Below, in pieces: positions 41,401 to 45,195 of a stretch of DNA of 64,000 nt; position 1 is the stretch's first letter, and the number at the start of each line of letters is the position of its first letter. Under the pieces are notes generated by a model. It had not been told where the DNA came from and made no database searches. It was given only the letters and a program-made list of their open reading frames with translations. The position numbers and the translations under genes are program-made. Source of the DNA: Phoronis australis (lineage: Eukaryota; Animalia; Phoronida); assembly GCA_002633005.1 (NCBI GenBank), contig NMRA01000021.1, positions 390,354-454,353 of the forward strand. Direction: 5' to 3'.

Positions 41401-44400
41401 TTTATAGTTGTTATCAACATCCTGGCAAGCGGAAGAACAGCAGTAAAATGCCGCCTGGATTAACAAAGCCGACTTGATCAGCTGTTCACCTACCTGAAGG
41501 TCCTGTTTGGCCGACTCTGCAGCACCCCTGGCATTGAATGTGACGAACCCAACTGGCTGTAACAGTGTGCAGCTGACTTAATTACCAGTCATCATTACAA
41601 ACATTATTTAATGCTTAGACATGGAAAATCACCACCACTTCAATATATGTACATGAGAAATTCAATCTCTCGAATAAACTCTGGCAGTGACCTTGGCCAG
41701 AGACCATCCAACTTTGCTAGAGACTCAACTCAAAAATAGACCAATCACATTGCATGAAACATGAAAGTTTACTCCGTGTGCCACATGATTGGCCAATTTT
41801 CAAACCGAGTCTCGAGACCACCAAACTTCACGAGATTGGAAAACTGATGAAACACATTGTATGTAATTTGAAATGCAGGTCAAATGATGCATGTCAAGTA
41901 CATATTGCTTTGCAAAGGCGTCAGTAACAGAACTTGCGAGAGGTTACAAACCAGGTCGTGGGTTCAGCGCAGATTACTTAGGGTTGAAGAACTGTGCGTG
42001 GTTTCGAGCAACTGGGTTAGTAACAGCAGAGAACAGTGAATTTGGTATTTGATCAGTAAAACATTCATGCTACAGAGACCCCTATAAAAACAATTTTTAT
42101 GATTTTCAAAAATTTACATTTTTCAATCGCATTAACTTCCATCAGCAACATTAAAGCATCTTGCAGAGCCATCTGAGAAAACCCTTGTTTTGCTTCCTGA
42201 ATATTGCGGAGAACACTATGTTTTGTTTGATACGGCCAGTTAACGTTCTTTAACTATTCTAACACACACAAAAATAGTGCTAATTATTTCATAAAGATTC
42301 ACCATCCCTAAGTTGAATTATTTGCAGTTTCTGATTTTACGTCTTGACCTCAGCAGCGCTTCATGGGTATTTGTAGTAGATAAATATGAAATTCAGATAA
42401 AAATCAAGTATATTCCCAAAAATATTTTAAAATGGAAAGAGACTCGCAAAATGTTTTAGTTAGTTAAGGTGACAAGTTCAAGAAATAGGCAACGAACAAA
42501 AAAATCGAGTAAACTTCTCAAGATCTTAGACTGTAGAAAGTCATCAATCATGACAAAGTCAGCATGGGCAAGAATCGTATACTTAACCTTTAGATTTCTT
42601 TAAATGCCCCGTTTTGACAGAGTGTTTGGAATACAAAAACAGGGTCAACAACTCCTAAATTCAGACTAGAGCAGAGATATTAAATCCATCCAATAAAAAC
42701 ACAGAAAAATAATTGGGAAAGGAAGTATACGAGGAAATAAATTCTACATGTGGCTAGGAGACAATTGAACAAAGGTCACCTGTGTACATGGGGTGATTAG
42801 ATGCAGACGGATCTAGGAAGAACTATGACAATTGACAAAGAATTCAGGGCGAACAGGAAGTTAATCGCGAAATTATGTGACAAATGTTTGAAATGAGATA
42901 AAGCACAGTGCGAGTGTGGTGTGGAGTAACGTCGAGAGGAAAATGTAGCCAAAAGTAAAGAACAAATAATAAGCTGCTTTGAGAGTAAGCCCGTTGGTGT
43001 TTTGCTGATAGGTGGCACTGCTGACAAGCAGACTGTTGCTAGAGTGATAACAACGAGACAACAGACAATTGAAACACAGAAACACCTATCCTGCGGGAGA
43101 TTCATCTTACCAAATGGAAACTTGTAACTATCATTTGTTATTAGATTCCTTAATTACTTGTTAGATATTGAGTATTGATTGACGCATTGACAACTGTTTC
43201 AGTAACACTATACGAAATACATCAGGAAAAAATCGCATCGTCTCAGAAGAACAGGTAGCGTAAGCTATTTCAGGCAGGAGGCGGTCTAATGGGCGTAATT
43301 AGGGACTCCCGCTGATACAAGTCAAGACTGTCAGCTTTACAATGGTGGATTTAATTACATGAGAATGACATAAGATTCCAGTTGAACATGACAAGTCAAG
43401 AAAATGACGCACCTGTCTACCAATTACCCCAGTGTATTCATCGTTTCTTAGCGATAGTATCAAACTTGATGGAGCCAGCAGAATCATTATGTACATAATC
43501 TTTCTGAACACCAAGTTTCGCAATTCAATGTCAGAAACTTAATGGATACAAGAGTGTGAAATGAGAACATTTTGGTACAACTGAAAATTTTTGTTTTTTC
43601 ATTGGAAGTATAATTTGTTCCTTATCTAGTAGAATCTAAATAAGGTAAACACTGATCAACTATATCTGGAGTCACTAACTTGACAATCATGTACAACTGA
43701 AATGAGTTAGCTGTAAATGTTTAGTCAAATCACACAGTATATACCAACTCGCTGGCAACTTGAAATTGATAAAAGAAAAACAAAAAAAACCCGCCAAATT
43801 GAGGTCACTGCCAACTACAAATATTCGAACTAATAGAACTGCCAGCTAAACTGAAGAATGGCAGCCAGTAGCCAGCGAAAATGAATCAGGACAAAGGCAG
43901 TTCTGACTACTTGAGATGTATTTTGAAAACACTTGACTAGCAAAAGTGGAAGGGTACAAGTGCAGATTAATCTTAAGAATGTAAAAGGATCATTAACTCG
44001 CCTGATAACAGAGCAGCATCTGTTTTTTTTTTCTCTGCACATTTGAAGACCAAAATCAGATGGAAGCATTATTAGGCGGAAGAAACAGGAGTGGTTGGCT
44101 TGACTGTGAGCCAATCAGAAAAGCTTCAATTATTTTTTTACGAAACAGGAAGATGTTCTCAATTCACTTTTTCATTCAAAAAAGCATTGGTTCACAAAAT
44201 CTACAGCAGCAGTGCTTGCCCCATTTATAAATATCACTTCATTTTTATCTTATACGGAGATCCATTTGCAACCTGAGTGTATTTGTCAGTTAAATCTGCA
44301 CTTGACAGTACAGCCAGTGAGTTGGTATTGTCTGCTAAGAAAATAATAAATGTGGTGCAACTTACTGAAGTGTTTTTGCCATTTTTACTGGTGACTTTTA

Positions 44401-45195
44401 ATAGTGAGCCTTCATAACCCTGCAAAATATAGTCGAAAGAATCGTAACATGCAATGGTGCTCGTGTGATCGCCGTGTATCACACCAGGACATCGTGACGT
44501 GCGTCACGCGCTCGTGGTGCGGCGTGTTCGTTACTTACACACGTGTTGTGTTGCGGCTGTTTGGCCGTTATTTTTAGCAAGGACGTTTCGTAGCCCTGCA
44601 AAAGTCAAAGACAATGGACATGGTGTAAGCAGAAGCCCCAATACAGACGGTACCCTCGTCATGAGTGCCCTGAAAGATAATGCTTTGAAGACAGCGCCAC
44701 CACTCCAAAGCGAATACTGCATCATGTTAGTCGAAAAAAAGCAAACCCAGCAATTTAAATTTGAAACTAAAAACGCACCTATCGAGTACCAACAATTTTC
44801 TTCTAAATGCTATCAATAAAAATTTCAGTTATTAACAAAGTACTGATCACATCATTGTAAGCAACAATTTCAAAAGATCAACAAAAAATTACTCATTCAG
44901 TCAACAGCAGTTCTTTATATTAAAATCAGAAGAAACACGTGAAAATCTTTCTTCAAAAGCTAGGTTATTTTCTCCAATAAACAATGTGCCACACTGCCAT
45001 TCATATTACAATCAACATTAGACCAGACAGCTCACAAGAACAGCCAGGACGTGAACAGGAAATGACAATGCTGTTTGTGACAGTGAGAGCAGGTGCAAGG
45101 TATTTAGTCACTCCTACCTTGTACGCTCGGAATAACAGGTAGAGTTCCCGTGGCTTTGCATCCATGGGCAACCCACTCACAAAGAGTGTCCGCAC
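32399..45195 (-). CDS. cpo: Couch potato / MEC-8 / RBPMS-family RNA-binding protein with two RRMs (5'-partial; start exon not found in window)
   Basis: Exons 45118-45195, [44539-44595 or 44366-44419], 41494-41556, 40746-40881, 38167-38321, 37488-37772, 35804-35914, then last exon 33318-33416 or 32399-32467; all GT-AG and in frame. RRM1 [51 protein letters not shown]...[26 protein letters not shown]2 [11 protein letters not shown]...[26 protein letters not shown]...[19 protein letters not shown]. Confidence 0.92.
33318..33416 (-). CDS. cpo: candidate alternative last coding exon ([32 protein letters not shown])
   Basis: ctctttatatttcag acceptor, phase 0, 99 nt to TAG; GC-rich, with composition similar to the linker exons. 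Confidence 0.55.
   Translation of the reverse strand, partial: LPIEFSQVATTTAANGHLATMQTPVLVPYFQA
35071..35093. repeat. (AAT)n microsatellite
   Basis: aataataataataataataataa. Confidence 0.8.
35804..35914 (-). CDS. cpo: cpo/RBPMS exon, RRM2 C-half ([37 protein letters not shown])
   Basis: caacag acceptor, GAG|gtgagt donor; 111 nt. Confidence 0.92.
36264..36414. repeat. 36-bp minisatellite x4 (intronic)
   Basis: gttaagtctgcatatattgcaccatctcttaagaaa head-to-tail; the first unit has a 4-bp insertion (attg). Confidence 0.92.
37488..37772 (-). CDS. cpo: cpo/RBPMS exon, linker + RRM2 N-half ([10 protein letters not shown]...[11 protein letters not shown]...PVAFVEYQ)
   Basis: ttgcag acceptor, CAG|gtaggg donor; 285 nt. 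Confidence 0.92.
38167..38321 (-). CDS. cpo: cpo/RBPMS linker exon ([51 protein letters not shown])
   Basis: attgtag acceptor, TCT|gtgagt donor; 155 nt, phase 1-0; FFPG..W.H resembles the cpo linker as I recall it. Confidence 0.88.
39698..39784 (-). CDS. candidate frame-preserving cassette exon ([28 protein letters not shown])
   Basis: tgtgttgcag acceptor, G|gtatgc donor; 87 nt, phase 1-1, stop-free in the cpo frame; no homology evidence. Confidence 0.35.
40746..40881 (-). CDS. cpo: cpo/RBPMS exon ([45 protein letters not shown])
   Basis: tttgcag acceptor, C|gtgagt donor; 136 nt, ends in phase 1. Confidence 0.92.
41494..41556 (-). CDS. cpo: cpo/RBPMS RRM1 exon ([21 protein letters not shown])
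   Basis: gttacag acceptor, CAG|gtaggt donor; 63 nt; RNP1 motif; not in the ORF track. Confidence 0.92.
44366..44419 (-). CDS. cpo: cpo/RBPMS RRM1 alternative exon B ([18 protein letters not shown])
   Basis: tattttgcag acceptor, TCA|gtaagt donor; 54 nt, phase 0-0. Confidence 0.92.
44539..44595 (-). CDS. cpo: cpo/RBPMS RRM1 alternative exon A ([19 protein letters not shown]), putative mutually exclusive
   Basis: ctttgacttttgcag acceptor, TGT|gtaagt donor; 57 nt, phase 0-0; paralogous to 44366-44419. Confidence 0.8.
45118..45195 (-). CDS. cpo: cpo/RBPMS RRM1 exon ([26 protein letters not shown])
   Basis: ggtttcag acceptor, AAG|gtagga donor; 78 nt; RNP2 motif LFVSGL. Confidence 0.93.

What the first reader, a model, noticed from the sequence alone, without database searches (positions are those of the whole stretch)
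44366..44595. Hidden tandem-duplicated, probably mutually exclusive exon pair rewiring RRM1 of the cpo/RBPMS protein
Seen: two phase-0 exons 119 nt apart, each with a ttttgcag acceptor and gtaagt donor, encode [19 protein letters not shown] (57 nt) and [18 protein letters not shown] (54 nt). 9 of the first 12 residues are identical while the codons differ at silent sites (GGC/GGT, TAC/TAT, TCC/TCA, TTG/CTA, CTA/TTA, ACG/ACC), the signature of an old duplication with both copies kept under protein-level selection. Exon A is invisible in the ORF track. Known: this segment lies between RNP2 and RNP1 and forms beta2 and the beta2-beta3 loop, which commonly tune RNA recognition in RRMs. From memory, B resembles insect cpo ([11 protein letters not shown]) and A resembles vertebrate RBPMS/RBPMS2 (KLTSKQP/KLTARQP). 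Inference: one gene switches between an insect-like and a vertebrate-like RRM loop, and the two lineages may each have kept a different copy of an ancestral exon pair. I do not know of this being described.
Basis: partly seen in the sequence, partly recalled or inferred. Interest (0 to 1): 0.85.

Follow-up and report, generated by a model that had tools for sequence, protein, structure and literature searches.

The report
Twin exons retune couch potato RRM
A splicing-regulator gene (couch potato/RBPMS) carries two side-by-side copies of one small exon, uses either in its RNA, and shares this pair with molluscs, a bristle worm and a lamp shell; the swap likely changes how the protein grips RNA and is likely steered by the protein itself.

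Summary
Observation confirmed. RNA reads splice both exons: B is the major form (34 reads in, 26 out, three runs), A is minor (4 in, 3 out, one run). No A-to-B joint reached the listing threshold. The pair is old: an A-type copy occurs in bivalves, gastropods, octopods, Owenia, Lingula and bryozoan-like loci, upstream of B wherever order shows. It was not seen in the amphioxus, sea-cucumber, hemichordate or arthropod proteins, or the vertebrate-type loci examined. The 'vertebrates kept A' story fails. Vertebrate, amphioxus and hemichordate exons are closer to B in 16 of 16 pairs, the vertebrate exon is 39 nt, and its P comes from the next exon. Exclusivity is not strict: A+B and neither-exon models are annotated in relatives. 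New here: the exon holds MEC-8's RNA-contact positions K63, T65 and S73; most A copies replace T65 with Met. The A-B intron is CAC-rich in all seven A-bearing locus groups and usually carries an RBFOX motif, suggesting self-regulation (untested). My searches found no description in print. The scan noted a similar twin-exon case in tra2, on other DNA. New member of a known kind.

The parts
45118..45195 (-). Upstream constitutive exon (E2): RNP2/beta1 and helix alpha1 of RRM1; phase-0 donor
   Evidence: joints to A and B
44539..44595 (-). Exon A, 57 nt, the derived lophotrochozoan copy; beta2 plus beta2-beta3 loop; minor form
   Evidence: 4 reads in and 3 out, run X3 only; A-type copies in relatives
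44420..44538 (-). A-B intron, 119 nt: 9 CAC, 3 GCAC (starting at 44520, 44502, 44460); predicted RBPMS/cpo binding cluster
   Evidence: top 0.55% of 119-nt windows on the gene strand; CAC clusters in related loci
44488..44497 (-). 10-nt intron word shared exactly with the A-B introns of L019 and L031
   Evidence: 3 and 5 of 300 shuffles reach it; six comparisons, uncorrected
44448..44453 (-). TGCATG, RBFOX-type motif, 34 nt upstream of exon B
   Evidence: present within 120 nt upstream of B in 5 of 7 A-bearing locus groups v 3 of 32 others
44366..44419 (-). Exon B, 54 nt, the ancestral-type copy; major form
   Evidence: 34 reads in and 26 out over three runs
41494..41556 (-). Downstream constitutive exon (E4): RNP1/beta3 and alpha2; begins with the Pro of PVGF
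40746..40881 (-). Exon E5: beta4 of RRM1 and start of the linker
39698..39784 (-). Separate 87-nt in-frame cassette exon in the linker
38167..38321 (-). Linker exon E6
37488..37790 (-). Exon E7, first half of RRM2; two acceptors (37790 and 37772)
35804..35914 (-). Exon E8, second half of RRM2

Best explanation
The window's couch potato/RBPMS gene has two tandem copies of the exon between RNP2 and RNP1 of RRM1 and splices either into mRNA (B major, A minor), molluscs, Owenia and Lingula have the same pair, the swap likely changes how the first G of GCAC is read, and a CAC cluster between the copies likely lets the protein steer its own choice. Shown: both exons are spliced here; the pair is conserved; the intron motifs are enriched. 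Inferred: (1) one duplication of a B-type exon in the lophotrochozoan stem, with B staying nearly frozen and A diverging; (2) the swap changes the positions of MEC-8 Thr65 and Ser73, which bond to the G, while Lys63 and the dimer interface stay, so A- and B-subunits would still pair; (3) cpo dimers, helped by RBFOX, would bind the intron, which lies downstream of A (activating position) and just upstream of B (repressing position), so high cpo would shift splicing from B to A. Exclusivity is by regulation and is leaky, not hard-wired. My odds: real, conserved alternative pair 0.95; single lophotrochozoan origin 0.75; altered RNA reading 0.65; self-regulation through the CAC cluster 0.55.
For: Splicing. 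Distribution: 86 of 466 fetched proteins carry an A-type segment; the named ones are molluscs, Owenia and Lingula. 12 of 70 genomic loci (6 of 39 dereplicated groups) hold A upstream of B with donor GTAAGTA. No twin was found in 20 of 33 twin-less groups that hold the whole E2-to-B intron; the other 13 do not reach E2. No A-type form among 17 Branchiostoma, 7 holothurian, 6 hemichordate proteins or seven arthropod clusters. Selection: L006 v L016 exon A differs at 8 silent and 1 replacement codon of 19. Residues: across 16 pairs B keeps Thr at position 10 and a final Ser in 16 of 16; A has Met in 13 and Thr in 3, and ends in Ser in only 4. These map to MEC-8 Thr65 and Ser73 (PMC5311487 results; my mapping on the 5bjr alignment). 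Fold: an oyster A-type protein models as an RRM with A forming a strand (residues 50-58) and the loop, best match MEC-8 5bjr, TM 0.90 by target, rmsd 1.9. Motifs: CAC count in the 120 nt downstream of A's donor ranks in the top 0.7-3.4% of its own locus in 6 of 7 groups, and the seventh has its cluster upstream of B (top 3.7%). CAC upstream of B is higher in A-bearing groups (7 v 32, p=8e-5), and TGCATG is present in 5 of 7 v 3 of 32 (p=0.002). RBPMS activates from downstream introns and represses from about 80 nt upstream (PMC6613909 passage); RBFOX2 cooperates with it (PMC10570038 passages).
Against: A rests on 4 and 3 reads from 3 and 2 start places in one run; its restriction to X3 is not significant (Fisher p 0.10-0.24). 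The window's own A keeps the Thr65 position, so the Met change is not universal; here only the Ser73 position (Cys), loop length (+1) and loop sequence change. The window's A and the two bryozoan-like A copies score closer to B than to other A copies on average, so separate duplications are not excluded; an exon tree could not be built (18 columns). The motif p-values treat related lineages as independent, and all A-bearing loci are probably lophotrochozoan. In the window the CAC excess over dinucleotide shuffles is modest (p=0.028) and GCAC is not significant (p=0.20). Similar CAC-rich windows occur at 56722 and around 38472-37848, partly in coding exons. Two twin-less groups (L042, L047) also have 5-6 CAC upstream of B. 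A+B and neither forms are annotated in relatives. Mammalian RBPMS was proposed as a master regulator, a class expected not to be limited by autoregulation (PMC6613909 introduction passage). No binding or knockdown data. The folds are of relatives, with mean pLDDT 57 and 47 overall.
Confidence: 0.6

Rival explanations
1. One reading: the pair predates the protostome-deuterostome split; vertebrates kept A and insects kept B.
For: The window's A has Thr at 10 and Gln at 13, like vertebrate-type and coral-like exons; over 13 residues it scores 9 v B's 10 against the vertebrate type and 10 v 10 against the coral-like exon. Human RBPMS2 has Ala at position 11, as the window's A does.
Against: B is closer than A to vertebrate, amphioxus, hemichordate and holothurian exons in 16 of 16 pairs. 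The vertebrate-type exon is 39 nt and ends at KQ, whereas A copies are 51-57 nt with long tails. Hemichordate B-type exons have KQ. Amphioxus has short and long B-type forms, 8 proteins each. Two RBPMS2-type loci (L009, L054) have Ser-Lys, not Ala-Arg. No A-type form in 30 deuterostome invertebrate proteins, and no twin in 3 vertebrate-type loci that span the intron.
Confidence: 0.06
2. A is a damper rather than a second specificity: A-only, A+B and neither forms bind RNA less well but still dimerise with B-subunits, giving negative feedback like the RBFOX delta-RRM isoform.
For: All four forms are annotated. A evolves faster than B and its tail is poorly conserved. The dimer residues of MEC-8 lie outside this exon (PMC5311487). 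In L042 a 65-nt out-of-frame candidate exon with the same donor sits where A would be, above a CAC-rich intron.
Against: A keeps GY/FE, LK and the Lys63 position in all 16 pairs and models as a normal beta2, which is more constraint than a mere spoiler needs. In the A+B model B supplies beta2 and A loops out with pLDDT under 50, so A+B may be B-like. The L042 exon has no read support.
Confidence: 0.25
3. The switch is tissue-specific and run by other factors (RBFOX or others); the CAC cluster is incidental.
For: TGCATG is enriched upstream of B. The CAC excess over dinucleotide shuffles is modest in the window. A was seen in one of three runs.
Against: CAC clusters recur in all 7 A-bearing groups, in A-B introns of 83 to 1683 nt, and L019 and L031 have clusters but no TGCATG.
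Confidence: 0.2
4. Two or more independent duplications: a Thr-type A (window, bryozoan-like loci) and a Met-type A (molluscs, annelid, Lingula).
For: Thr-type A copies score closer to B than to Met-type A on average.
Against: Same order, same donor GTAAGTA, loss of Gly at position 4 in all 16, shared terminal Cys with gastropod and octopod A, shared CAC and TGCATG layout, and a shared 10-nt intron word between the window and Met-type loci L019 and L031.
Confidence: 0.15

Closest known systems
U2AF1 exons 3 and Ab (PMC5224494; abstract and outline seen)
   Same: A splicing factor with duplicated alternative exons that give a major and a minor protein isoform.
   Different: Different gene and lineage. 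Repression there is by weak branch points and a stem-loop; here the candidate elements are the factor's own CAC motifs plus an RBFOX motif, and both exons are in frame, so double inclusion and double skipping keep the frame.
RBFOX delta-RRM autoregulation (described in PMC3126832 passages; the primary paper was not held)
   Same: A splicing regulator alters its own RRM by in-frame alternative splicing, as feedback.
   Different: RBFOX deletes part of the RRM; here a homologous replacement exon is available. Feedback is shown for RBFOX and only inferred here.
RBPMS control of Tpm1 exons 2/3 with RBFOX2 and MBNL1 (PMC6613909 and PMC10570038 passages)
   Same: Tandem CAC clusters upstream repress and downstream activate; RBFOX cooperates; the outcome is a switch between paired exons.
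   Different: There RBPMS acts on another gene in mammalian smooth muscle; here the predicted target is its own pre-mRNA in invertebrates.
RBPMS/couch potato/MEC-8 RRM1 (PMC5311487, parts 1-3 of 5 read; PDB 5BJR, 5TKZ, 5DET, 5CYJ, 2M9K)
   Same: Same domain; B matches MEC-8 at the contact positions K63, T65, S73.
   Different: That paper treats RRM1 as the part common to all splice isoforms of MEC-8, cpo and RBPMS; in lophotrochozoans it is itself alternatively spliced.

Membership tests
RBPMS/couch potato/MEC-8 family | N-terminal RRM of the RBPMS type | tested here: met
   Window exon E5 hits RBPMS, RBPMS2 and MEC-8 chains and cpo proteins at up to 98%; the spliced B form is 77% identical to Lingula cpo over 283 columns.
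RBPMS/couch potato/MEC-8 family | Dimer-interface residues in alpha1 and the alpha2-beta4 loop | tested here: met
   By sequence only: the motifs listed for MEC-8 are present in E2 and E5, outside the switched exon.
RBPMS/couch potato/MEC-8 family | Binds tandem (G)CAC motifs | not testable with these tools
   Needs binding assays.
Tandem homologous (duplicated) alternative exons | Neighbouring exons of similar length, same phase, homologous peptides | tested here: met
   57 and 54 nt, phase 0, 9 of 12 residues identical.
Tandem homologous (duplicated) alternative exons | Both copies under coding constraint and conserved | tested here: met
   16 A/B pairs; 8 silent v 1 replacement codon between L006 and L016 exon A.
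Strict mutually exclusive exons (criteria of PMC5740500, passages) | Bridging junction reads for each exon (upstream to B, A to downstream) | tested here: met
   E2>B 34 reads, A>E4 3 reads.
Strict mutually exclusive exons (criteria of PMC5740500, passages) | No exon-joining (A>B) reads | tested here: inconclusive
   None listed here, but the list needs 3 reads and A has only 3-4. 29 A+B models are annotated in oysters, mussels, abalones, octopods, Babylonia and Owenia, so the family as a whole fails this feature.
Strict mutually exclusive exons (criteria of PMC5740500, passages) | An enforcing mechanism: frameshift/NMD, steric clash (donor to branch point under 50 nt), U2/U12 mismatch, or RNA pairing | tested here: not met
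   Both exons are multiples of 3 with GT-AG sites. The last internal AG is at intron position 78 and a branch-like word lies at 91 of 119, though candidates at 32 and 41 exist and no branch point was mapped. Intron folding is no better than shuffles (z -0.39 and -1.06). The A-B intron is 1683 nt in L029.
Autoregulated splicing-factor exons (RBFOX delta-RRM type) | Own binding motifs, conserved, in regulatory position beside the exon | tested here: met
   caveats on relatedness of lineages apply.
Autoregulated splicing-factor exons (RBFOX delta-RRM type) | Splicing responds to the factor's own level | not testable with these tools
   Needs knockdown, overexpression or a minigene.

The most novel reading that the evidence does not exclude
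Since the lophotrochozoan ancestor, couch potato has run a self-steered specificity switch: when abundant it binds the CAC cluster between its twin exons, with RBFOX, and replaces the strand and loop that read the G of GCAC. This yields A/A, A/B and B/B dimers with different RNA targets in different tissues: a splicing regulator that rewrites its own motif preference rather than only damping its level.
Probability: 0.25. Interest if true: 0.78.

Novelty: new member of a known kind. Interest (0 to 1): 0.5.

Why it matters
The RBPMS-family RRM1 was taken as the part shared by all isoforms. In a large invertebrate clade it exists in two versions that differ at RNA-contact positions, and the pair has survived across at least three named phyla. 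It offers a natural two-allele experiment on how the first base of GCAC is read, testable with two small domains, and a compact 83-120 nt intron for testing self-regulation. It also fixes the history of the loop: the short vertebrate loop belongs to the B lineage, with amphioxus making both lengths. The isoforms already sit unremarked in public automatic annotations, and duplicated exons in splicing factors are a known kind, which caps the surprise.

Tried and rejected
No whole genome is held for this window. The run search listed no RNA holder by index; four runs came by species label. The contig run X4 laid nothing, which is no proof of absence. RNA structure as the exclusion mechanism: not above shuffles. 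An internal donor that would shorten A to the 39-nt vertebrate length: the bases after codon 13 are CC, not GT. The first tree used two exon ends off by one (4 stops) and is discarded; the corrected quick tree puts the window among lophotrochozoans, nearest Lingula, with no strongly supported set holding it. An exon-only tree failed for too few columns. The profile search of protein representatives never ran, so flatworms, sea urchins, sea stars, tunicates, priapulids and named cnidarians remain unsampled. Sample specificity of A: not significant. No complex prediction was sent: an A/B heterodimer would pass by likeness to the solved homodimers. Literature: 'couch potato'+'alternative splicing'+'mollus' 0 papers; 'RBPMS'+'autoregulat'+'exon'+'amphioxus' 0; 'RBPMS'+'duplicated exon'+'invertebrate'+'isoform' 0; others (30 of 69 listed; 2; 7; 25 of 2,330 listed) showed, by title and abstract start, no paper on this pair. 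PMC5740500 has no occurrence of RBPMS in its main text. Supplements were not read, and most subscription journals are not searched. The scan's notes held nothing on this genome or on a look-alike protein.
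Full report
1. Observation. Nine of the first twelve residues are identical, with only 21 of 36 bases alike. No other 12-mer in six frames of the window exceeds 7 identities to B. 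The gene is a two-RRM couch potato/RBPMS orthologue with exons from 45195 down to 35804; its first exon was not found in the window. The spliced B form is open over 294 codons and is nearest to Lingula cpo (77% over 283 columns), but no strongly supported group holds it, so I call the animal a lophotrochozoan and no more.

2. Both exons are used. Three stranded RNA runs with the same species label, about 19% of each read, give E2>B 11/5/18 reads, B>E4 8/7/11, E2>A 0/0/4 and A>E4 0/0/3. No A>B or E2>E4 joint was listed, but listing needs 3 reads from 2 starts, so rare forms are invisible. Depth in the bin holding A is 0, 0 and 1.22, which the exon reads alone account for. A is thus real and minor. 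Its showing in X3 only is not significant (p 0.10-0.24). The second lay read the same share of the runs and repeats these counts.

3. The pair is old. A search with exon E5 returned mostly lophotrochozoan proteins. Between E2 and E4 they hold two segment types. A-type segments occur in bivalves, Haliotis, Patella, Babylonia, octopods, the annelid Owenia and the brachiopod Lingula. Of 466 proteins fetched, 303 are B, 57 A, 29 A+B, 10 neither, and 67 lack the span; these are clustered, biased samples of gene models, not expression levels. A pattern scan of metagenome contigs gave 70 genomic loci with a B-type exon; 12 of them, in 6 of 39 dereplicated groups, have a twin upstream of B. For one of these groups (L006/L032) the nearest named protein is from the bryozoan Bugula; L016's group is similar to it. 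Their A copies are 57 nt, keep Thr at position 10 and end in Cys, like the window's. Between L006 and L016 exon A differs at 8 silent codons and 1 replacement codon. No twin was found in 33 groups, 20 of which hold the whole E2-to-B intron; these include 3 vertebrate-type loci and loci I label coral-like, arthropod-like and rotifer-like from recall, not from a call. No A-type form appeared among 17 Branchiostoma, 7 holothurian and 6 hemichordate proteins or in seven arthropod clusters. The Biomphalaria (11) and Gigantopelta (4) clusters showed only B, so losses or annotation gaps exist.

4. The evolutionary story is different from the one proposed. Human RBPMS and RBPMS2 align to B-type proteins with a five-residue gap, and vertebrate-type loci have a 39-nt exon ending at KQ, so the following Pro belongs to the next exon. 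Coral-like loci have the same 39-nt form. Amphioxus has a short and a long form, 8 proteins each, identical over the first 13 B-type residues, and hemichordates have a long B-type exon with KQ. Over 12 residues every outgroup exon tested is closer to B than to A in 16 of 16 pairs. The simplest history is a duplication of a long B-type exon in the lophotrochozoan stem (inference). An older date with several losses, or two separate duplications, is not excluded; the three Thr-type A copies score closer to B than to other A copies.

5. Exclusivity is soft. Both exons are multiples of three, both use GT-AG, and the intron folds no better than shuffles. A+B models exist in oysters, mussels, abalones, octopods, Babylonia and Owenia; neither-exon models in oyster, octopus, Mya, Lamellibrachia and one bumblebee protein. 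None of the 9 Lingula, 14 Ruditapes-cluster, 15 scallop-cluster or 6 Patella-cluster proteins is A+B. By the criteria of PMC5740500 (passages) this is a homologous alternative pair, not a proven strict MXE.

6. What the swap would change. In MEC-8 bound to GCAC, Thr65 and Ser73 bond to the guanine and Lys63 to the adenine, and the dimer interface lies in helix alpha1 and the alpha2-beta4 loop (PMC5311487, parts 1-3 of 5 read). By my mapping on the alignment, positions 63, 65 and 73 are residues 8, 10 and 18 of exon B. B keeps Lys, Thr and Ser in 16 of 16 pairs. A keeps Lys in 16, has Met for Thr in 13, and ends in Ser in 4. The window's A keeps Thr, ends in Cys and is one residue longer. An oyster A-type protein models as a regular RRM in which A forms a strand and the loop, best match MEC-8. 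In an octopus A+B model B forms the strand and A loops out at low confidence. The window's own A form was not folded. So A probably loosens or shifts reading of the first base while leaving dimerisation intact; this is inference.

7. How the choice is probably made. The A-B intron has 9 CAC and 3 GCAC in 119 nt, the top 0.55% of windows on the gene strand; against dinucleotide shuffles p is 0.028 for CAC and 0.20 for GCAC. In 6 of 7 A-bearing groups (window included) the 120 nt after A's donor rank in the top 0.7-3.4% of their locus for CAC; the seventh, with a 1683-nt intron, has its cluster before B. TGCATG lies within 120 nt upstream of B in 5 of 7 such groups and in 3 of 32 others (one group with too short a flank dropped). 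A 10-nt word is shared between the window and L019 and L031. RBPMS activates exons from the downstream intron and represses from just upstream (PMC6613909 passage), and works with RBFOX2, whose motif is (U)GCAUG. One cluster between the twins would therefore favour A and disfavour B. This is untested, the lineages are related, and two twin-less groups also have CAC clusters, one with an out-of-frame candidate exon in A's place.

8. Comparison and verdict. Closest known: U2AF1 exons 3/Ab (abstract), RBFOX delta-RRM feedback (passages) and RBPMS control of Tpm1. Seven of my nine literature searches were aimed at this pair and found no description, but the isoforms are already in public automatic annotations, and supplements and most subscription journals were not seen. 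The scan noted a similar twin RRM exon case in arthropod tra2, which I did not check. Verdict: real, conserved, a new member of a known kind; the vertebrate-versus-insect reading is rejected; self-regulated retuning of RNA recognition is the best mechanism. Interest 0.5.

Noticed in passing
window 39698-39784 (-): An 87-nt in-frame cassette exon in the linker, included in 15 reads at its upstream joint against 6 that skip it, with two GCAC motifs upstream of its acceptor.
   Followed up: partly
window 37790 / 37772 (-): Two acceptors 18 nt apart on the first RRM2 exon, 12 v 10 reads.
   Followed up: no
window 36690-36960: Intronic dispersed repeat that attracts hundreds of 85-95% alike reads from both strands; a 72% copy lies at 50999-51264.
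   Followed up: partly
L042, 349 nt upstream of its B exon: No coding twin, but a 65-nt candidate exon with a good acceptor and donor GTAAGTAA, out of frame, above an intron with 17 CAC: possibly a decayed A or a poison exon. No read support; organism unknown.
   Followed up: partly
Branchiostoma proteins P0216, P0281 and cluster: Amphioxus has short and long loop isoforms differing by six residues; since the extra piece starts with Gly it cannot be read-through of a GT donor, so an 18-nt microexon is likely.
   Followed up: partly
L009 and L001, within 120 nt upstream of the exon: TGCATG also occurs upstream of the single exon in one vertebrate-type and one coral-like locus; RBFOX control of this exon may predate the duplication.
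   Followed up: no
scallop cluster (P0058 and members): 10 of 15 proteins have A extended by three residues (VSN), which fits read-through of the GTAAGT donor to a second donor; Owenia P0045 and Ridgeia P0128 have other extensions.
   Followed up: no
window 21561-21917 (-): Exon of a TEDC1-like gene (PF14970, E 6.5e-14), downstream neighbour on the same strand.
   Followed up: no
window 24023-24361 (+): Retrotransposon RNase H-like fragment (PF17917), next to an assembly gap at 25902-26379.
   Followed up: no
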